A DNA stretch of 64,000 nucleotides. It comes from Escherichia coli (GTDB taxonomy: Bacteria; Pseudomonadota; Gammaproteobacteria; Enterobacterales; Enterobacteriaceae). Below are positions 3,707-23,136 of the stretch, one piece after another. The stretch lies in the NCBI RefSeq assembly GCF_046105845.1, contig NZ_CP151004.1. The stretch is one strand, 5' to 3'. How positions within the stretch are numbered: position 1 is the first letter of the stretch; each line of letters opens with the position of its first letter. The position numbers were made by a program, and so were the translations under genes. Below the pieces are notes generated by a model. The model ran no database searches, was not told where the DNA came from, and worked only from the letters and a program-made list of their open reading frames with translations.

Positions 3707-4087
3707 ATGAGTAAGGAATATATGAACGATGGTTCATTAAGTGAAAAATGGAAATACCGATTTAATTTTTATGATCAACATGGCTTTCCTGGATTCTGGG
3801 GGGCAACACCAGAATATAAAGCAGCATTTAAAACATTAAAAGTAAGACAACGATTAACTATTCAAATGAATTTCATTGCTTTCTTCTGTTCCTGGATCTA
3901 TTTATTTGTTCTGGGATTATGGAAAAAAGCAATTATAGTTCTATTACTTGGCATTCTATCTCTATTTGTTGGTGCACTAATTGGCGTTAACATTCTGGGA
4001 ATTGCCGTAGCAGCCTATGTTGCTGTTAACACGAACAAATGGTTTTATGAGAAAGAGGTAAAAGGGTTAAATACCTGGAGCCTTTGA
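3707..4087 (+). CDS. yigF: Small inner-membrane protein YigF (DUF2628-like)
   Basis: ORF 3665..4087; internal ATG at 3707 (MSKEYMNDGSLSEKWKYRF..., 126 aa) is preceded by a GGAG Shine-Dalgarno at 3698-3701. Two hydrophobic helices. Confidence 0.65.
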   Translation: MSKEYMNDGSLSEKWKYRFNFYDQHGFPGFWGATPEYKAAFKTLKVRQRLTIQMNFIAFFCSWIYLFVLGLWKKAIIVLLLGILSLFVGALIGVNILGIAVAAYVAVNTNKWFYEKEVKGLNTWSL

Positions 4088-4093
4088 ATAACA

Positions 4094-4129
4094 GGTGGCT
4101 TAGCCAGGCTAAGCCACCGCCTTCTTTTT
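4094..4129. terminator. Bidirectional rho-independent terminator between the convergent yigF and corA genes
   Basis: Inverted repeat GGTGGCTTAGCC / GGCTAAGCCACC followed by CTTCTTTTT. Confidence 0.55.
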
Positions 4130-5078
4130 ACAGCCAGTTCTTGCGCTTAAAGTACAGATACGGTGCCAGGCCCGCGAGGATCATAAAGATAATCGCGCCA
4201 GGGTAGCCGAAACTCCACTTCAGTTCCGGCATAAACTCAAAGTTCATCCCGTAGCTGGAAGCAACCAGCGTTGGCGGCAGGAACACGACGGATACCACCG
4301 AGAAGATTTTGATGATGCGGTTCTGCTCGATGTTGATAAAGCCCATCGCCGCCTGCATCAGGAAGTTCACCTTCTGGAACAGAGATTCGTTATGCGGCAG
4401 CAGGGATTCGATATCTCGCAGGATTTCACGCGCCTGCTCCAGCTGCCCGCCCGGTAAACGCGCCTTACGCACCAGGAAGTTGAGCGCACGCTGGGTATCC
4501 ATCAGACACAGGCGAACTTTCCAGCCGATATCTTCCAGTTCCGCCAGCGTGGAGAGCGCCTCGTCGTACTCATCGCCCTGATGCCCTTCCATAATTACCC
4601 GGCTCAACTGCTCCAGGTCGCTGTAGATATTTTCAATTTCATCTGCCAACTGTTCGATTTTGGTTTCGAACAGATCCAGCAGCAGCTCGTAGGCGTTACC
4701 GTCCACCATTGACTGGCTACGGGCACGCATACGATACAGACGGAATGCAGGCAGTTCACGCTCACGCAGAGTAAACAGACGACCATCACGGATGGTAAAT
4801 GCCACAGTGGAGTTACCGGCGTGATCTTCCGCATCTTCAAAGAAGAAGAAGGAGTGAATATGCAGGCCGTCATCGTCTTCAAAGAAACGTGCCGATGCTT
4901 CGATGTCTTCCAGTTCCGGGCGGGTTGCCAGGCTCTGACCAAGTTCAGATTGTACGCGCAGTCGCTCGTCGTCGTCCGGTTCGACAAGATCAATCCATAC
5001 TGCATTTACAAGGGGTTGTGACTCTTCGACTTCCAGCCGGGTCAGTCGGTTATTTTCCAGTTGAAATGCGCTCAGCAT
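4128..5078 (-). CDS. corA: Magnesium/cobalt transport protein CorA
   Basis: ORF 4128..5093; internal ATG at 5076-5078 gives the 316-aa protein [16 protein letters not shown]..., with the GMNF motif and two C-terminal TM helices. Confidence 0.95.
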
Positions 5079-5447
5079 GACCGGGACTCCCAATGCTTAA
5101 AATATCGGACAGTTCGGTGGGCACACAGAAACAAATTGGGTTTCAGACCATTAAACAGCCTGACTCAGCGCGACGGGAAAAATTGAGGTCGCTGACAACC
5201 GCTAAGGCTATCAGCAAAAAGGGATAGCCTTAGGAGTTGATCCTGGATGACAGGATAGTGAGCCAGTATCTACTGGGTGTGTCCAAGGCGAATGTCCTCT
5301 TAGAGTGATCGTGCGCGCATGTTACGCCAGCAAAATTTTGCCGTCAACACGCAACAGAACACCACAGAACAATAGTTGAACTTCGCGCTTTTTGGTACTC
5401 GTCAAGGTCGCTAACAGGATAAAAAAATCCCACATCCAGGACCTATA

Positions 5448-6212
5448 ATGGCGCATCGGCTACTCATTGGTAAAGGAATGATCACCTTGAATCTCAAACG
5501 GATTTTTCTCACCCTCACCTTACTTCCCTTATTTGCTGTTGCCGCTGATGATTGCGCACTCTCAGATCCGGCGCTGACCGTACAGGCGTATACCGTTAAT
5601 CCTCAAACAGAGCGGGTGAAAATGTACTGGCAAAAAGCCAATGGCGAAGCGTGGGGAACGTTACATGCTCTGCTGGCGGATATTAATAGTCAGGGTCAGG
5701 TGCAGATGGCAATGAACGGCGGCATCTATGATGAAAGCTATGCGCCGCTCGGTTTGTACATCGAAAACGGTCAGCAGAAGGTGGCGTTAAATCTCGCTTC
5801 AGGTGAAGGGAATTTCTTTATTCGTCCTGGCGGCGTGTTTTATGTCGCGGGAGATAAAGTCGGCATCGTTCGTCTGGATGCCTTTAAAACCAGTAAAGAG
5901 ATTCAGTTTGCGGTGCAGTCAGGGCCAATGTTATTAGAAAACGGCGTAATTAATCCGCGTATTCATCCCAACGTCGCCTCACGTAAAATTCGTAACGGTG
6001 TTGGGATTAATAAACAAGGGAACGCCGTGTTTTTGTTGAGCCAGCAGGCGACAAATTTTTATGATTTTGCCTGTTATGCCAAAGCGAAACTGAACGTTGA
6101 GCAGTTGCTTTATCTTGATGGCACAATTTCACATATTTATATGAAAGGCGGGGCAATCCCGTGGCAACGCTATCCTTTTGTCACCATGATTTCCGTCGAG
6201 CGGAAAGGTTAA
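5448..6212 (+). CDS. yigE: DUF2233 (phosphodiester-glycosidase-like) protein with an N-terminal signal peptide
   Basis: 254-aa ORF matching YigE in length; hydrophobic N-terminus LKRIFLTLTLLPLFAVAADD; syntenic next to corA. Confidence 0.8.
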   Translation: MAHRLLIGKGMITLNLKRIFLTLTLLPLFAVAADDCALSDPALTVQAYTVNPQTERVKMYWQKANGEAWGTLHALLADINSQGQVQMAMNGGIYDESYAPLGLYIENGQQKVALNLASGEGNFFIRPGGVFYVAGDKVGIVRLDAFKTSKEIQFAVQSGPMLLENGVINPRIHPNVASRKIRNGVGINKQGNAVFLLSQQATNFYDFACYAKAKLNVEQLLYLDGTISHIYMKGGAIPWQRYPFVTMISVERKG

Positions 6213-6294
6213 GCATTATACACTCGAGGAGGCCAGACAAACTGGGACTGGCTACACAGCTGGAAAATCATCAGATAAATGAAGGGAAACAAAA

Positions 6295-7197
6295 ATGAAA
6301 AAAACGCTCGCAACGTTATTTTTATTAACGTGTCTGGGATCATCATCCGCCTATGCGGATAACGCTTTGATTTTACAAACTGATTTTAGCCTGAAAGATG
6401 GTGCCGTCTCGGCGATGAAAGGGGTCGCATTCGGCGTTGACCATAATCTTAAAATCTTTGATTTAACACACGAAATTCCACCGTATAACATCTGGGAAGG
6501 CGCTTATCGCCTGTATCAGACTGCCAGTTACTGGCCGCAAGGTTCGGTGTTTGTTAGCGTGGTCGATCCGGGCGTAGGCACTGACCGTAAATCGGTAGTG
6601 CTGAAAACCAAAAACGGTCAGTACTTCGTTTCACCAGATAACGGTACGCTCACTTTGGTGGCACAAACTCTGGGTATTGATAGCGTCCGGGAAATCGACG
6701 AAAAAGCTAACCGCCTGAAAGGTTCTGAAAAGTCATATACCTTCCACGGTCGTGACGTGTATGCCTACACCGGTGCGCGTCTGGCTTCCGGGGCGATTAC
6801 GTTCGAACAGGTGGGGCCAGAGCTTCCTGCAAAAGTTGTCGAACTTTCTTATCAGAAAGCAAAAGCAACAAAAGGTGAAGTGAAGGGCAATATCCCGATT
6901 CTCGATATTCAGTACGGCAACGTCTGGAGCAATATCAGCGACGAGTTGCTGAATCAGGCAGGAATCAAACTCAACGACACGTTGTGTGTGACCATTTCCG
7001 AAGGTTCCCAGCAAAAATACGCAGGGAAAATGCCGTATGTCGCAAGTTTCGGCGATGTGCCGGAAGGCCAGCCGATGGTGTATCTGAACAGCTTATTGAA
7101 TGTTTCCGTGGCGCTGAATATGGATAATTTCGCGCAGAAACATCAGGTTGCATCTGGTGCTGACTGGAATATTGATGTGAAGAAGTGCGCTAAGTAA
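6295..7197 (+). CDS. DUF62 / S-adenosyl-L-methionine hydroxide adenosyltransferase-family protein with a predicted Sec signal peptide
   Basis: 300-aa ORF. N-terminus MKKTLATLFLLTCLGSSSAYA is a typical signal peptide. Mature region carries what I recall as the DUF62 hallmarks: ILQTDFSLKDGAVSAMKGV, VVDPGVGTDRK, SPDNGTL and TFHGRDVYAYTG. Preceded by a purine-rich RBS. Confidence 0.8.
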   Translation: MKKTLATLFLLTCLGSSSAYADNALILQTDFSLKDGAVSAMKGVAFGVDHNLKIFDLTHEIPPYNIWEGAYRLYQTASYWPQGSVFVSVVDPGVGTDRKSVVLKTKNGQYFVSPDNGTLTLVAQTLGIDSVREIDEKANRLKGSEKSYTFHGRDVYAYTGARLASGAITFEQVGPELPAKVVELSYQKAKATKGEVKGNIPILDIQYGNVWSNISDELLNQAGIKLNDTLCVTISEGSQQKYAGKMPYVASFGDVPEGQPMVYLNSLLNVSVALNMDNFAQKHQVASGADWNIDVKKCAK

Positions 7198-7205
7198 GGG
7201 GCTGA

Positions 7206-7236
7206 TGCGGAATGCGGTGTGGCGCACCGCATTCCG
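7206..7236. terminator. Perfect 13-bp-stem hairpin between the convergent DUF62 gene and uvrD; probable bidirectional terminator
   Basis: GCGGAATGCGGTG - TGGCG - CACCGCATTCCGC read directly from the sequence. No strong T-run follows. Confidence 0.4.
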
Positions 7237-7241
7237 CAACG

Positions 7242-9404
7242 TCACACCGTCTCCAACCGGGCGTAAGCCGCCACCAGCCATTTAATACCCTGGCCCTGGA
7301 ACGCCACCTGCAAACGGCTATGCTCACCGCTGCCTTCCATATTGACGATGGTGCCTTCACCAAACTTAGCGTGGCGTACGCGCTGGCCGAGCTTGTAGCT
7401 GCTGTCGTTCTCGACCATCGGCGTACCCATCCGTTGATGGCTGACCGGGCGGCTTACCGTGGCGCGCAGGCGCACCTCTTCCACACACTCTTCCGGCAGC
7501 TCGCCGATAAAGCGCGACGGGCGATGGTAAACCTCTTTGCCATACAAACGGCGAGTTTCCGCGTAGGTCAGCGTCAGTTTCTGCATCGCGCGGGTTACGC
7601 CAACGTAGGCCAGACGGCGTTCTTCTTCCAGACGTCCGCCTTCATCCAGCGACATCTGGCTTGGGAACATGCCTTCTTCCATACCAACGATAAACACCTG
7701 CGGGAACTCCAGCCCTTTCGCCGAGTGTAGCGTCATCAACTGCACCGCATCCTGCCAGGTATCCGCCTGCCCCTCGCCCGCTTCCAGTGCCGCATGGGAG
7801 AGGAACGCCTGCAGCGGCATTAAATCTTCGTCTTCTTCGTTGTAGCTGAACTGGCGCGTCGCCGTCACCAGTTCCTCTAAGTTTTCGATACGCGTCTGTC
7901 CTTTTTCGCCCTTCTCCTGCTCGTACATGGTGCGCAGGCCGGAGTCTTTAATGACCCGGTCAGTCTGTACATGCAGCGGCATATCGGCAGTTTCCTGCGC
8001 TAAGGCGTCGATCAGTTCCATAAACCGTTGCAAGGCACTGGCAGCACGTCCGGCGAGGGCTTTTTCCTGCAACAGTTCACGACATGCCTGCCAGAGTGTT
8101 AACTGACGATCGCGCGATGTCTGACGTACCACGTCCAGCGTCCGGTCACCAATACCCCGCGTTGGCGTATTCACCACGCGCTCAAAGGCCGCGTCGTCGT
8201 TGCGGTTGGCAATCAGGCGCAGATATGAGAGCGCGTCTTTGATTTCCTGACGTTCGAAGAAGCGCATCCCGCCGTAAATACGGTACGGCATACTCGCCTG
8301 CAACAGTGCTTCTTCCAGCACGCGCGACTGGGCGTTGCTGCGGTAGAGAATGGCGCACTCGGCGAGCGCCCCGCCGTTGTCCTGCCAGGTCTTGATACGG
8401 TTAACCACAAAACGCGCTTCGTCGAGTTCGTTAAAAGCGCAATAGAGGGAAATCGGCTCACCGTCCGCGCCATCGGTCCACAGTTTTTTACCCAGACGCC
8501 CGTTGTTGTTTTCAATCAGGGCGTTAGCGGCGCTCAGAATATTGCTGGTAGAGCGGTAGTTTTGCTCCAGACGAATAGTTTCGGCACCGGGGAAATCATT
8601 AAGGAAACGCTGAATATTCTCCACCTGCGCCCCGCGCCAGCCGTAGATTGACTGGTCGTCATCGCCAACGATCATCACTTTGCCGGTGTCGCCCGCCAGC
8701 AGGCGGATCCACGCGTACTGAATGTTGTTGGTATCCTGGAATTCGTCCACCAGGATGTTAGTAAAACGTTCGCGGTAGTGTTGCAGGATATGCGGCTTGT
8801 TAAGCCACAACTCGTGAGCACGTAGCAGCAGCTCGGCGAAGTCCACCAGGCCCGCGCGGTCACACGCTTCCTGATACGCCTGATACACCTTCTGCCAGGT
8901 CTGCTCCACCGGATTACCGTAGCTTTGAATATGATGTGGACGCAGGCCTTCATCTTTCTGGCTGTTGATGTACCACATTGCCTGGCGCGGCGGCCACTGC
9001 TTCTCGTCGAGGTTCATCGCCTTGATTAGGCGTTTGAGCAGGCGTAGCTGGTCCTCGCTGTCGAGGATCTGAAAATCCTGCGGCAGATTGGCGTCCATAT
9101 GGTGCGCACGCAGCAGACGGTGCGCCAGCCCGTGGAAGGTGCCGACCCACATGCCGCCCTGGCTGGTGCCCATCAGCTGCCCGATACGATGACGCATCTC
9201 CGCCGCCGCTTTGTTGGTAAACGTTACCGCCATAATCGAGTATGGCGAGCAGTTTTCCACGCTCATCAGCCAGGCGATACGATGCACCAATACGCGCGTC
9301 TTACCACTGCCCGCGCCCGCCAGCACCAGAAGGTTGCTGCGTGGCGCGGCCACCGCTTCGCGCTGTTTGTCATTAAGGCTGTCGAGCAGGTAAGAAACGT
9401 CCAT
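7242..9404 (-). CDS. uvrD: DNA helicase II (UvrD)
   Basis: ORF 7242..9590; internal ATG at 9402-9404 yields the 720-aa protein [38 protein letters not shown]... with Walker A. Confidence 0.95.
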   Translation of the reverse strand: MDVSYLLDSLNDKQREAVAAPRSNLLVLAGAGSGKTRVLVHRIAWLMSVENCSPYSIMAVTFTNKAAAEMRHRIGQLMGTSQGGMWVGTFHGLAHRLLRAHHMDANLPQDFQILDSEDQLRLLKRLIKAMNLDEKQWPPRQAMWYINSQKDEGLRPHHIQSYGNPVEQTWQKVYQAYQEACDRAGLVDFAELLLRAHELWLNKPHILQHYRERFTNILVDEFQDTNNIQYAWIRLLAGDTGKVMIVGDDDQSIYGWRGAQVENIQRFLNDFPGAETIRLEQNYRSTSNILSAANALIENNNGRLGKKLWTDGADGEPISLYCAFNELDEARFVVNRIKTWQDNGGALAECAILYRSNAQSRVLEEALLQASMPYRIYGGMRFFERQEIKDALSYLRLIANRNDDAAFERVVNTPTRGIGDRTLDVVRQTSRDRQLTLWQACRELLQEKALAGRAASALQRFMELIDALAQETADMPLHVQTDRVIKDSGLRTMYEQEKGEKGQTRIENLEELVTATRQFSYNEEDEDLMPLQAFLSHAALEAGEGQADTWQDAVQLMTLHSAKGLEFPQVFIVGMEEGMFPSQMSLDEGGRLEEERRLAYVGVTRAMQKLTLTYAETRRLYGKEVYHRPSRFIGELPEECVEEVRLRATVSRPVSHQRMGTPMVENDSSYKLGQRVRHAKFGEGTIVNMEGSGEHSRLQVAFQGQGIKWLVAAYARLETV

Positions 9405-9452
9405 TGGCACCGCCGCGTAAAAATAGGTTGGGCGGAGAAGCGCAACGCCCTC

Positions 9453-9468
9453 CGCCAAAAAGCTGGGT
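9453..9468 (-). promoter_or_regulatory. LexA (SOS) box in the uvrD promoter
   Basis: Minus-strand sequence ATCTGTATATATACCCAGCT fits the CTGT-N8-ACAG consensus and sits about 50 bp upstream of the uvrD start. Confidence 0.75.
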
Positions 9469-9487
9469 ATATATACAGATTTGCTGA

Positions 9488-10204
9488 TTATATCAGCGAG
9501 GTCAGAGATGCCAACCGGGAAATTTCCAGATGCGGGAGTAAACGGCTGTCCCAGGTTTGCATCAGATCGCCATTTTCCGGTCTGATCCAACAGGCCTGCA
9601 TTCCGCTGCGAATTGCCCCACCCACGTCAGTGGTGAGATCATCCCCGACATGTAAGATCTCGCCGATCGGCACGTTGAGTTTTTCCGCCGCCAGGAAGTA
9701 CATATCGCTGAACGGTTTTGAGCGCCCGTGCGGGCCAGCACGCAGCACAAACTCAAAATAATCCCCCAAACCAAACAGTTCCGGCTGGGCGTTACCGTTG
9801 GTGATCGCCACCAGCGGCCATTTCTTCGCCAGCTGTTTTAAGGTGTCGTGGGTTTGCTGCGGGACATCGATTCGGCTGCGCCATTTGGCAAAGTTGATCA
9901 TTGCTGCGTGTGCGCCTGCACTGGCTTCTTCGGCACTCAGCCCGGCGTCGAGCATGGCTTGTTCAATCGAACGAAAACGCCAGCGCGTCACGTCGTGATA
10001 AATCTCGGGTTCCGCTTCCCGTACCGCCTGGCGCAGGCGTTGCAGATCTTCATTCTGGAAGCTGCGCAGCGCCGGATGATAATTTTGCACAAAGGTAAGC
10101 GCCTCTCGCTCGGTGCGCAAAATCACCGGACGGTTATCGTAAAGGGTATCATCCAGGTCAAAGGTGAGCGCCGAGATGCGCCTCAAAGGCCGGTAAAAAC
10201 GCAT
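9488..10204 (-). CDS. yigB: HAD-family phosphatase YigB (5-amino-6-(5-phospho-D-ribitylamino)uracil phosphatase)
   Basis: 238-aa ORF with the HAD motif FDLDDTLYD near the N-terminus; last gene of the dapF-yigA-xerC-yigB cluster. Confidence 0.9.
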
Positions 10205-23060: not shown

Positions 23061-23095
23061 GCCGGCGCTATCGCTACATCGGGCCACACTGACCT

Positions 23096-23125
23096 TGCCG
23101 GATGCGGCGTGAACGCCTTATCCGG
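23096..23125. repeat. REP (repetitive extragenic palindromic) element
   Basis: GCCGGATGCGGCGTGAACGCCTTATCCGGC matches the classic E. coli REP consensus; lies between the convergent aslA and aslB. Confidence 0.6.
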
Positions 23126-23136
23126 CAATCAACCGC

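What the first reader, a model, noticed from the sequence alone, without database searches (positions are those of the whole stretch)
7198..7241. Unusually perfect 13-bp-stem hairpin abutting the uvrD stop codon
GCGGAATGCGGTG/CACCGCATTCCGC is a perfect 13-bp inverted repeat with a 5-nt loop and no T-run, so it is not a canonical intrinsic terminator or a REP. It sits exactly at the junction where the extra DUF62 gene meets the conserved uvrD 3' end. It could be an RNA-stabilising element, a protein binding site, or a scar of the insertion event.
Basis: seen in the sequence. Interest (0 to 1): 0.25.

Follow-up and report, generated by a model that had tools for sequence, protein, structure and literature searches.

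The report
Collapsed REP-pair hairpin behind uvrD
The perfect hairpin between uvrD and the neighbouring SAM-hydrolase gene is real, but it is the shrunken remnant of an ordinary pair of E. coli REP repeats and most likely just caps the ends of the two converging mRNAs.

Summary
GCGGAATGCGGTG (7207-7219), loop TGGCG, CACCGCATTCCGC (7225-7237) is a perfect 13-bp inverted repeat (14 bp with T7206/A7238). It has no T-run, folds at about -32/-31 kcal/mol on either strand, and is the longest perfect hairpin in the window.

The hairpin is REP-derived. Genomes without the DUF62 gene (K-12-like) carry the same right arm plus AACG next to the uvrD stop, as the head of a normal imperfect REP within a two-REP BIME. 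Two Escherichia relatives have the DUF62 gene and the full BIME. The window hairpin is that BIME minus its inner 52-73 nt, fusing the two REP head arms. That removes the GTAG tags and the AA/GC bulge. It is therefore not an insertion scar.

About 2405 of 5426 complete E. coli genomes carry it, once each, at this locus. Alleles form a chain of single changes with compensated pairs (pair 3: C-G, G-C, A-T; pair 5: G-C, A-T). Roughly 60% of genomes appear to carry a 12/13 stem.

Most likely function (inferred): a U-less, two-way 3'-end protective or attenuating stem-loop for uvrD and DUF62 mRNAs. The K-12 BIME is listed as a uvrD:yigE bidirectional terminator. Ordinary; low interest.

The parts
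7207..7219 (.). Left arm GCGGAATGCGGTG. It derives from the head arm of the DUF62/yigE-proximal REP (REP1) of the ancestral BIME.
   Evidence: The alignment shows CTGAT-GCCGGATGC continuous with REP1 of L019, L016 and K-12-like L001.
7220..7224 (.). Loop TGGCG. As RNA on the + strand it forms a U.G closing pair and a GGC triloop.
   Evidence: The loop is invariant in all 24 collapsed loci sampled. It differs from the CGCAG/CACAG loop of the intact uvrD-proximal REP, and that difference is unexplained.
7225..7237 (.). Right arm CACCGCATTCCGC, the head arm (reverse complement) of the uvrD-proximal REP (REP2).
   Evidence: CACCGCATCCGGC-AACG sits next to the uvrD stop in the DUF62-less E. coli sampled (L001; L005 and L010 each differ at one position of the arm) and in Escherichia relatives.
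7206..7238 (.). Full palindrome, 14-bp arms (T7206-A7238 adds one pair).
   Evidence: (repeat I2).
7198..7205 (+). 8-nt spacer between the DUF62 stop codon and the stem. G7202 is specific to this window; other genomes have GGTGCT.
7238..7241 (-). AACG (CGUU on the uvrD mRNA), the 3-4 nt spacer between the uvrD stop and the stem. It is conserved in most sampled Escherichia genomes (variants ACCG in L099, AACT in L106, AACA in L019).
6295..7197 (+). Gene for a SAM hydroxide adenosyltransferase (DUF62) family protein. Its mRNA would end in the hairpin.
   Evidence: Pfam SAM_HAT_N 3.5e-53 and SAM_HAT_C 2.2e-18; RefSeq annotation.
7242..9404 (-). uvrD (DNA helicase II), convergent with the DUF62 gene. 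Its mRNA would end in the same hairpin.
   Evidence: RefSeq annotations (2163-nt CDS).
7238..7337 (+). C-rich, G-poor stretch (C/G 2.05) just downstream of the hairpin for read-through DUF62 transcripts; a putative rut-like region.
   Evidence: This is an inference from PMC6061677.
7107..7206 (-). C-rich, G-poor stretch (C/G 2.13 on the minus strand) just downstream of the hairpin for read-through uvrD transcripts; a putative rut-like region.
   Evidence: This is an inference from PMC6061677.

Best explanation
The hairpin is a collapsed BIME, meaning a pair of inverted REP elements.

Origin. The ancestral Escherichia arrangement downstream of uvrD was: stop, CGTT, REP2 (head GCCGGATGCGGTG, loop, bulged tail, GTAG), linker, then REP1 (GTAG, bulged tail, loop, head), followed by the neighbouring gene. 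A deletion between the directly repeated GCCGGAT(GC/AA)GG(C/T)G segments of the REP1 head and the REP2 tail removed both tails, both GTAG tags and the linker (52-73 nt). The two head arms were left facing each other. Head arms are exact complements of each other, so the product is a perfect, bulge-free palindrome.

Function (inferred, not shown). The hairpin is transcribed into both convergent mRNAs. There it probably acts as a U-less 3' stem-loop that blocks 3'-5' exonucleases after diffuse, probably Rho-dependent, termination in the C-rich antisense sequence beyond it. It may also partly attenuate read-through in both directions. It starts 3-4 nt after the uvrD stop and 8-9 nt after the DUF62 stop, so it may also slow terminating ribosomes, as reported for REPs closer than 16 nt to a stop codon.

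Maintenance. Continued near-perfection across lineages is best explained by hairpin-templated (quasipalindrome template-switch) correction. Weak structural selection may also contribute.
For: SHOWN.

(a) Homology and position. The right arm plus AACG abuts the uvrD stop in DUF62-less E. coli as the head of an imperfect REP within a BIME.

(b) Escherichia sp. MOD1-EC7003 (L016) and strain SCPM-O-B-8794 (L019) have DUF62 plus the full BIME. In the alignment the window equals that BIME minus an internal 52 nt (L019) or 73 nt (L016), with the junction inside GGATGC|GGTG.

(c) The left flank CTGAT matches the REP1 flank. It does not match the complement of AACG, which would be expected if REP2 had simply been 'corrected'.

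(d) The full BIME is the state in E. albertii, E. whittamii, Escherichia sp. E1V33 and E. coli E69, so the collapsed form is derived.

(e) The collapsed form is present once per genome in 2405 of 5426 complete E. coli genomes, against 2413 with the DUF62 gene. All 24 sampled collapsed loci are DUF62-positive.

(f) Stability is -27 to -30 kcal/mol, against -12 to -24.5 for intact REPs.

(g) Ten alleles were seen. Stem pair 3 occurs as C-G, G-C and A-T, and pair 5 as G-C and A-T, with the single-mismatch intermediates C.C and A.C also present.

(h) C/G is about 2.1 in the first 100 nt beyond the hairpin in both directions.

FROM THE LITERATURE.

- In K-12 the uvrD:yigE convergent pair is listed with a bidirectional-terminator overlap at 4000217-4000256. 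That overlap is the REP288 y-hairpin (REP1 here), has only 2 U in each flank, and was detected in log phase (supplement of bioRxiv 10.64898/2026.03.23.713779).
- REPs between convergent genes go with higher expression of both genes.
- REPs closer than 16 nt to a stop codon down-regulate translation (Liang 2015 as summarised in PMC12306157).
- Template switching repairs and creates perfect stems (PMC8794818; PMC7202029).
Against: - No RNA 3'-end data exist here for a genome with the collapsed hairpin, so function rests on analogy.
- From the identity bands and the sampled loci, roughly 60% of carrier genomes appear to have a 12/13 stem (the O157 C.C, CFT073 G.T, A.C and UTI89 loop-proximal mismatch alleles). 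Selection for perfect pairing is therefore weak at best.
- The covariation statistic is modest: 0.097 against 0.061 for shuffles, reached by 17 of 500 shuffles, with related sequences.
- Most other Enterobacteriaceae have no hairpin after uvrD at all.
- The loop (TGGCG) differs at 3 of 5 positions from the intact REP2 loop (CGCAG). A simple deletion does not explain this.
Confidence: 0.6

Rival explanations
1. Functionless relic. The collapsed BIME is neutral junk. Its perfection is a by-product of fusing two identical head arms, followed by hairpin-templated correction and drift. Any effect on the two mRNAs is incidental.
For: Most carrier genomes appear to have a mismatched stem. BIMEs are a known major source of neutral intergenic polymorphism (Bachellier 1997, cited in PMC3333891). 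Many Enterobacteriaceae manage without any hairpin after uvrD. Covariation is only modest.
Against: A -27 to -30 kcal/mol stem in the 3' UTR of two transcribed genes will form and will impede exonucleases whether or not it is selected for (PMC6061677). The K-12 homologue coincides with mapped bidirectional 3' ends. No allele among the 24 sampled loci has lost more than 2 of 13 pairs.
Confidence: 0.25
2. Scar of the DUF62 gene insertion. The hairpin, or its left arm, came in with the inserted block or was made by the insertion mechanism.
For: Within complete E. coli genomes the collapsed hairpin and the DUF62 gene co-occur almost one to one (2405 against 2413).
Against: L016 and L019 have the gene with an intact BIME. 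The left arm and its flank are homologous to REP1 of DUF62-less genomes. The co-occurrence is explained by tight linkage, since the two are only about 10 bp apart.
Confidence: 0.03
3. Canonical intrinsic (Rho-independent) terminator of uvrD, of the DUF62 gene, or of both.
For: A strong GC-rich stem immediately after both stop codons.
Against: No U-tract on either strand. It is not called by the terminator scan. The flanks of the K-12 homologue hold only 2 U each.
Confidence: 0.05
4. DNA-level protein-binding palindrome, such as an operator for a dimeric regulator or a gyrase, IHF or TnpA_REP site.
For: Perfect dyad symmetry. REP/BIMEs are reported to bind gyrase, Pol I and IHF (from my own knowledge, and PMC3333891).
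Against: The linker that carries the IHF site in BIME-1 is deleted. GTAG and the bulge required by TnpA_REP are absent (PMC8266576). Half-site positions 3 and 5 vary freely, provided the two arms stay complementary. That is the signature of a folded strand, not of a sequence-specific operator. The site lies between two 3' ends, far from any promoter.
Confidence: 0.03

Closest known systems
E. coli REP (palindromic unit, y type) / BIME; specifically REP288 between uvrD and yigE in K-12
   Same: Same locus and same descent. Both arms are REP head arms: GCCGGATGCGGTG in the ancestral allele, matched at 11 of 13 positions in the window. The hairpin is extragenic, lies between convergent genes, and is transcribed into 3' UTRs.
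   Different: There is no GTAG tag on either side, no AA/GC bulge, and no second REP or linker. It is single-copy and its stem is 3-15 kcal/mol more stable. By the criteria in PMC8266576 it should not be a TnpA_REP substrate.
[quoted passage not shown]
   Same: An energetically stable stem-loop directly after the coding region, no U-tract, and C>G sequence just downstream.
   Different: 3' ends have not been mapped for this hairpin. It would serve two convergent transcripts at once.
Bidirectional terminators between convergent genes (dataset reused in bioRxiv 10.64898/2026.03.23.713779, Table S16)
   Same: A symmetric hairpin shared by two convergent transcripts. The K-12 homologue (uvrD:yigE, REP288) is entry 316 of that list.
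   Different: Classical bidirectional terminators have an A-tract and a U-tract flanking the stem. This one has neither.
Quasipalindrome template-switch hotspots (Lovett-lab lacZ QP reporters, PMC7202029; template-switch maintenance of RNA stems, PMC8794818)
   Same: Short inverted repeat with a small loop. The natural alleles look like mismatch, then conversion to a new Watson-Crick pair.
   Different: The mechanism is not demonstrated here. Ordinary point mutation plus selection or drift could give the same allele series.
REPs within 15 nt of a stop codon that stall terminating ribosomes (Liang, Rudd & Deutscher 2015, as summarised in PMC12306157)
   Same: The stem starts 3-4 nt after the uvrD stop and 8-9 nt after the DUF62 stop.
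   Different: The effect was not tested. In many E. coli a 10-nt insertion moves the stem to 14 nt from the uvrD stop.

Membership tests
E. coli REP (TnpA_REP-type palindromic unit) | Conserved GTAG tetranucleotide 5' of the stem (PMC8266576) | tested here: not met
   The + strand 5' flank is GGGGCTGAT and the - strand 5' flank is GTGACGTT, with no GTAG. GTAG is present at the REP tails of the intact BIMEs (intact in L005, L010, L016, L019 and at K-12-like REP1; degenerate TTAG at K-12-like REP2).
E. coli REP (TnpA_REP-type palindromic unit) | Imperfect palindrome with the conserved AA/GC mismatch bulge in mid-stem | tested here: not met
   The stem is 13/13 Watson-Crick and both arms carry the 'GC' head version. 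PMC8266576 states that correcting the bulge to G12C13-G26C27 severely affects TnpA activity.
E. coli REP (TnpA_REP-type palindromic unit) | Sequence match to the REP head consensus GCCGGATGCGG(C/T)G | tested here: inconclusive
   The window arms match the local REP head at 11 of 13 positions and the general consensus at 10 of 13. A search allowing up to 2 mismatches misses it. Alleles L013, L099 and L100 match 13 of 13.
E. coli REP (TnpA_REP-type palindromic unit) | High copy number, dispersed through the genome | tested here: not met
   The 40-mer occurs at one place per genome (median 1, maximum 2) in 2405 genomes.
BIME | Two or more REPs in alternating orientation separated by a linker | tested here: not met
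   The window has a single 31-nt palindrome in a 44-nt spacer. The homologous loci L001, L005, L010 and L014-L019 have two REPs plus a 13-36 nt linker.
Intrinsic (Rho-independent) terminator | GC-rich stem-loop followed by a 7-8 nt U-rich tract | tested here: not met
   The stem is present but there is no T-run on either strand.
Rho-dependent 3'-end protective stem-loop | Stable stem-loop without a U-tract, C>G (rut-like) sequence downstream, and a mapped RNA 3' end at the foot of the stem | tested here: inconclusive
   Stability and lack of a U-tract are met. C/G is 2.05 and 2.13 downstream. The 3' ends cannot be tested with these tools. The K-12 homologue has mapped overlapping ends.
Translation-modulating REP (Liang 2015 rule) | [quoted passage not shown] | tested here: inconclusive
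   The distance criterion is met: 3-4 nt from the uvrD stop and 8-9 nt from the DUF62 stop. Stalling cannot be tested here, and the primary paper is not held.
Quasipalindrome template-switch site | Mismatches in an inverted repeat converted to perfect pairs using the other arm as template | tested here: inconclusive
   There is a chain of alleles. One branch runs C-G to C.C to G-C, then G-C to A.C to A-T; a second branch ends in A-T at pair 3, with its C.T intermediate seen only together with A.C in L003. The mechanism itself cannot be distinguished from point mutation plus selection.

The most novel reading that the evidence does not exclude
The allele series at this single-copy palindrome would be a natural, population-scale record of hairpin-templated (template-switch) compensatory evolution in E. 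coli. The series runs from the canonical C-G/G-C stem, through C.C, to G-C, through A.C, to A-T, and is spread over about 2400 sequenced genomes. The alternating perfect and mismatched alleles may also tune UvrD dosage, through stop-codon-proximal ribosome stalling or 3'-end stability. Lineages would then differ heritably in helicase II level without any coding or promoter change.
Probability: 0.2. Interest if true: 0.45.

Novelty: new variant of a known kind. Interest (0 to 1): 0.2.

Why it matters
The main value is in closing the question. An 'unusually perfect' hairpin that looks unlike a REP or a terminator turns out to be an internally deleted REP pair. There is no new element class here and no insertion scar.

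Two smaller points have some value:

- It shows how a BIME can collapse by slippage between its own direct repeats into a bulge-free, GTAG-less palindrome. By published criteria such a palindrome should be immobile and invisible to TnpA_REP, and it is missed by REP consensus searches.
- The locus offers about 2400 genomes with a clean chain of mismatch and compensation alleles in a 13-bp stem. That makes it a convenient natural test bed for asking whether compensatory stem evolution in bacteria is driven by template switching or by selection. It also gives isogenic-style natural variants for testing how 3'-UTR stem strength affects uvrD expression.

Tried and rejected
- **Rfam:** an E-value scan of 5000-10000 found nothing at the hairpin.
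- **Promoter and terminator scan:** nothing at 7198-7241.
- **Second copy in the window:** a search for the arm found none.
- **REP consensus search:** with up to 2 mismatches it misses the hairpin, which has 3 mismatches. This explains why it does not look like a REP at first sight.
- **Remnant of the DUF62 gene in DUF62-less genomes:** I tested whether the K-12 yigE-REP1 spacer holds one, which would show deletion rather than insertion. Local alignment was no better than shuffles (score 17 against a mean of 15.9; 99 of 300 shuffles as good). The polarity of the gene gain or loss is left open. The L005 spacer extraction in that script failed and was ignored.
- **Origin of the loop:** I asked whether TGGCG is the inverted or direct loop of REP2 (CGCAG or CTGCG) or of REP1 (TAAA). 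It is none of these, with at most 3 of 5 matches, so it remains unexplained.
- **DUF62 with a full BIME in E. coli:** I first read '8 genomes with at least 80% cover' as E. coli with DUF62 plus a full BIME. Fetching the best one (L100) showed an ordinary collapsed hairpin. No complete E. coli genome in the collection shows that state.
- **Papers not available:** Liang et al. 2015 (PMC4427526) is not held, and the Dar & Sorek supplement is not held. Their locus-level data for uvrD could not be checked. The RepRanger supplements do not mention uvrD.
- **Self-correction of REP2 alone:** considered and rejected, because the left flank CTGAT is the REP1 flank rather than the complement of AACG.

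Full report
**1. The observation**

The window reads ...GCT AAG TAA GGGGCTGAT GCGGAATGCGGTG TGGCG CACCGCATTCCGC AACG TCA....
- The TAA at 7195-7197 ends a 300-aa + strand ORF (6295-7197).
- The TCA at 7242-7244 is the stop of uvrD on the - strand.
- The arms are 7207-7219 and 7225-7237, and the loop is 7220-7224.
- The repeat finder extends the arms to 14 nt at 100% complementarity. It is the longest perfect hairpin among 16 inverted repeats in the 64 kb.

As RNA, the 61-nt stretch 7190-7250 folds at -32.4 kcal/mol (+ strand) and -31.1 (- strand). The z-scores are -4.6 and -4.9, and none of 200 shuffles folds as well. No T-run follows on either strand. The terminator scan and Rfam report nothing there.

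**2. Surroundings**

The neighbourhood is corA (-), yigE (+), the 300-aa gene (+), uvrD (-), yigB (-) and xerC (-), the Escherichia uvrD region. The 300-aa protein is a SAM hydroxide adenosyltransferase (DUF62) family member, and yigE is a phosphodiester glycosidase. The hairpin fills the 44-nt spacer between two convergent genes.

**3. Comparison within E. coli**

Of 5426 complete E. coli genomes, 2413 carry the DUF62 gene between yigE and uvrD. The rest have yigE directly facing uvrD.

In DUF62-less genomes (K-12-like L001, L005, L010) the yigE-uvrD spacer is a BIME, read on the window's + strand as follows:
- REP1: GCCGGATGCGGCG-TAAA-CGCCCTATCCGGCCTAC.
- A linker.
- REP2, inverted: (G/T)TAGGCC(A/G)(A/G)ATAAGGTG-CGCAG-CACCGCATCCGGC.
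- Then AACG and the uvrD stop.

The window's right arm, AACG and the uvrD end are therefore the conserved head of the uvrD-proximal REP. They are present whether or not the DUF62 gene is there. What differs is the partner arm. In DUF62-less genomes it is the usual bulged REP tail preceded by GTAG. In the window it is a second head arm.

**4. Outgroups**

A scan of one genome per species with the UvrD C-terminus returned 80 loci.
- Outside Escherichia, uvrD is followed directly by corA, with no yigE and no DUF62 gene.
- Klebsiella, Enterobacter, Kluyvera, Kosakonia and similar genera have no REP after uvrD.
- Most Citrobacter loci and the Salmonella locus have REPs or BIMEs right after the stop.
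- Within Escherichia, E. albertii, E. whittamii, Escherichia sp. E1V33 and E. coli E69 have yigE plus a full BIME.
- Escherichia sp. MOD1-EC7003 (L016) and strain SCPM-O-B-8794 (L019) have the DUF62 gene and a full BIME between its stop and the uvrD stop.

In the alignment the window sequence is that BIME with an internal gap of 52 nt (against L019) or 73 nt (against L016). The left breakpoint follows GCCGGATGC in the REP1 head. The right breakpoint precedes GGTG in the REP2 tail strand. Those two segments, GCCGGAT(GC)GG(C)G and GCCGGAT(AA)GG(T)G, are direct repeats matching at 10 of 13 positions, so slippage or unequal recombination between them gives exactly the observed product. The retained left flank (CTGAT) is the REP1 flank, which excludes a simple self-correction of REP2.

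Full BIMEs are found in all sister species, so the collapsed form is derived. The DUF62 gene coexists with an intact BIME in L016 and L019, so the hairpin is not a scar of gene insertion.

The one thing this model does not explain is the loop. It is TGGCG in all 24 collapsed loci sampled and CGCAG or CACAG in every intact REP2.

**5. Distribution and alleles**

A 40-mer of the canonical collapsed form finds one place per genome in 2405 genomes. That nearly equals the 2413 DUF62-positive genomes. All 24 sampled collapsed loci are DUF62-positive, and all three sampled DUF62-less loci have full BIMEs. No complete E. coli genome shows DUF62 with a full BIME: the best candidate proved to be collapsed. 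The tight association is what linkage over about 10 bp predicts.

Ten alleles were seen:

| Left / right arm ends | Stem state | Examples and counts |
|---|---|---|
| GCCGG/CCGGC | perfect, ancestral REP heads | 200-213 genomes |
| GCCGG/CCCGC | C.C at pair 3 | O157:H7 |
| GCGGG/CCCGC | perfect | L008, L101, L102 |
| GCGGA/CCCGC | A.C at pair 5 | about 370 genomes by inference |
| GCGGA/TCCGC | perfect | the window; 87 genomes exact |
| window allele with GGTA | loop-proximal mismatch | UTI89; about 234 genomes |
| GCAGG/CCTGC | perfect | E. coli B (ATCC 11303, L011); BL21(DE3) falls in the same 95% identity class but was not read |
| GCCGG/CTGGC | G.T at pair 4 | CFT073 |
| GCCGA/CCTGC | two mismatches (C.T, A.C) | L003 |
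| GCGGA/CCGGC | two mismatches (G.G, A.C), apparent recombinant | L009 |

The first six form a chain of single substitutions that alternately break and restore a pair. Pair 3 exists as C-G, G-C and A-T, and pair 5 as G-C and A-T.

The formal covariation score is modest: 0.097 against 0.061 for shuffles, reached by 17 of 500 shuffles. A back-of-envelope argument (inference) is stronger. Given a mismatch, a random next substitution in the 26 stem positions restores pairing at the partner about 1 time in 78. Yet at least three of roughly nine inferred stem substitutions are such restorations, two of them rare transversions.

From the identity bands, about 60% of carrier genomes appear to have a 12/13 stem. 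Perfect pairing is therefore not strongly enforced. Predicted RNA stability is -27 to -30 kcal/mol for perfect alleles, -17 to -28 for mismatched ones, and -12 to -24.5 for intact REPs.

**6. How it most likely works**

*Shown:* identity, origin, distribution, allele structure and folding potential.

*Inferred:* function. The hairpin is transcribed at the 3' end of both convergent mRNAs.
- Dar & Sorek (PMC6061677) showed that E. coli transcripts ended by Rho have precise steady-state 3' ends just after stable, U-less stem-loops. Of these, 24% are REPs. The stem-loops stop PNPase and RNase II, and rut-like C>G sequence lies just downstream.
- Here C/G is 2.05 and 2.13 in the first 100 nt beyond the stem in the two directions, falling to about 1.1-1.2 further on.
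- The supplement of bioRxiv 10.64898/2026.03.23.713779 reuses a published list of 306 bidirectional terminators. Its entry 316 is uvrD:yigE in K-12 at 4000217-4000256, which is the REP288 y-hairpin (REP1 here). It has only two U in each flank and was detected in log phase.
- The same preprint reports that REPs between convergent genes go with higher expression of both genes, and that a model REP acts as both a partial Rho-dependent terminator and an mRNA stabiliser.

By homology and position, the collapsed hairpin is the only structure left to do this job for uvrD and the DUF62 gene.

A second possible effect concerns translation. REPs closer than 16 nt to a stop codon lower translation by stalling terminating ribosomes (Liang 2015 as summarised in PMC12306157). 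The stem here begins 3-4 nt after the uvrD stop and 8-9 nt after the DUF62 stop.

At the DNA level, the published determinants for TnpA_REP are both absent (PMC8266576). These are the GTAG tag and the AA/GC bulge, and correcting the bulge to G12C13-G26C27 severely affects activity. The element is therefore probably immobile. The IHF-type linker of the K-12 BIME is also gone; its identification as a BIME-1 L linker rests on my memory of the motif and was not tested.

The recurrent restoration of pairing fits quasipalindrome template switching, which is documented in E. coli (PMC7202029) and proposed as a general way of creating and maintaining stems (PMC8794818). Weak selection on the RNA stem cannot be excluded.

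**7. Rivals**

- A purely neutral relic is the main rival (about 0.25).
- An insertion scar is contradicted by L016 and L019.
- An intrinsic terminator fails on the U-tract.
- A duplex protein-binding site is unlikely. The half-sites vary provided they stay complementary, the site lies between two 3' ends, and the known REP/BIME protein determinants have been deleted.

**8. Comparison with the known, and verdict**

It works like a REP or a U-less 3' stem-loop between convergent genes. It is descended from REP288/BIME but fails the membership tests for a canonical REP (no GTAG, no bulge, single copy) and for a BIME (one palindrome, no linker). I file it as a new variant of a known kind: an internally deleted 'head-head' BIME remnant. 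Nothing about it requires new biology.

The only points of wider interest are the clean natural series of compensatory alleles and the demonstration of one decay route for BIMEs. Interest is 0.2.

Noticed in passing
window 7238-7244; L003, L011, L013, L096-L100 (between AACG and the uvrD stop): Many E. coli carry a 10-nt insertion (GAGTTGTAAA or GAATCGTAAA on the + strand) between the hairpin and the uvrD stop. It moves the stem from 4 to 14 nt after the stop codon. The same long form (TAA TTTACGATTA CGTT) occurs with full BIMEs in L015 and L019, so it is an old polymorphism independent of the collapse.
   Followed up: partly
window 7202: G at 7202 (GGGGCT). Every sampled E. coli has T or another base (GGTGCT or GTTACT), and none of the 876 genomes matched by the 78-mer is 100% identical. 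Over 6100-7500 the window's best identity to any complete genome is 99.0%.
   Followed up: no
window 6295-6360: The DUF62/SAM hydroxide adenosyltransferase homologue starts with a signal-peptide-like sequence (MKKTLATLFLLTCLGSSSAYA). That implies export, which is odd for an enzyme whose known substrate, SAM, is cytoplasmic. yigE, next door, also has a hydrophobic N-terminus.
   Followed up: no
window 5448-7197 compared with L020-L093: yigE and the DUF62 gene are Escherichia-specific inserts. In the other Enterobacteriaceae genera sampled, uvrD is followed by corA on the same strand, in most loci about 340 nt downstream. Within E. coli the DUF62 gene is a presence/absence polymorphism (2413 of 5426) that cuts across familiar strain groups: K-12 lacks it and E. 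coli B (ATCC 11303) has it.
   Followed up: partly
L009 (NZ_CP116411.1), hairpin region: An apparent recombinant. Its left arm and DUF62 side are of the window type (GCGGA), while its right arm and uvrD flank are K-12-like (CCGGC, TTACACCGACTCC). The result is a stem with two mismatches, so the crossover lies in or next to the loop.
   Followed up: no
L001 against L010, L014, L015, L019 (BIME linker): The linker between the two REPs is polymorphic. The long form is about 36 nt (ATGACGTTGCAATTTATTGAATCTGAATGATTTTTT; K-12, L005, L016-L018) and resembles the IHF-binding L linker of BIME-1 (from memory, not tested). The short form is 13-15 nt (L010, L014, L015, L019).
   Followed up: no
window 47049-47075: A second perfect 13-bp palindrome (CAAGGCCTTCTCC G GGAGAAGGCCTTG). 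It begins 4 nt after a stop codon (...IIKVLYRN*) and also has no obvious T-run. It is probably another U-less 3' stem-loop.
   Followed up: no
window 4094-4118: A 12-bp perfect palindrome (GGTGGCTTAGCC A GGCTAAGCCACC) between the ORF ending at 4087 and corA, followed by CTTCTTTTT. The K-12 counterpart is entry 317 (corA:yigF:yigG) in the bidirectional-terminator table seen.
   Followed up: partly
window 23095-23128: A textbook y-type REP (TTGCCGGATGCGGCGT GA ACGCCTTATCCGGCAA) with the AA/GC bulge. I used it as the in-window comparison (-24.5 kcal/mol).
   Followed up: yes
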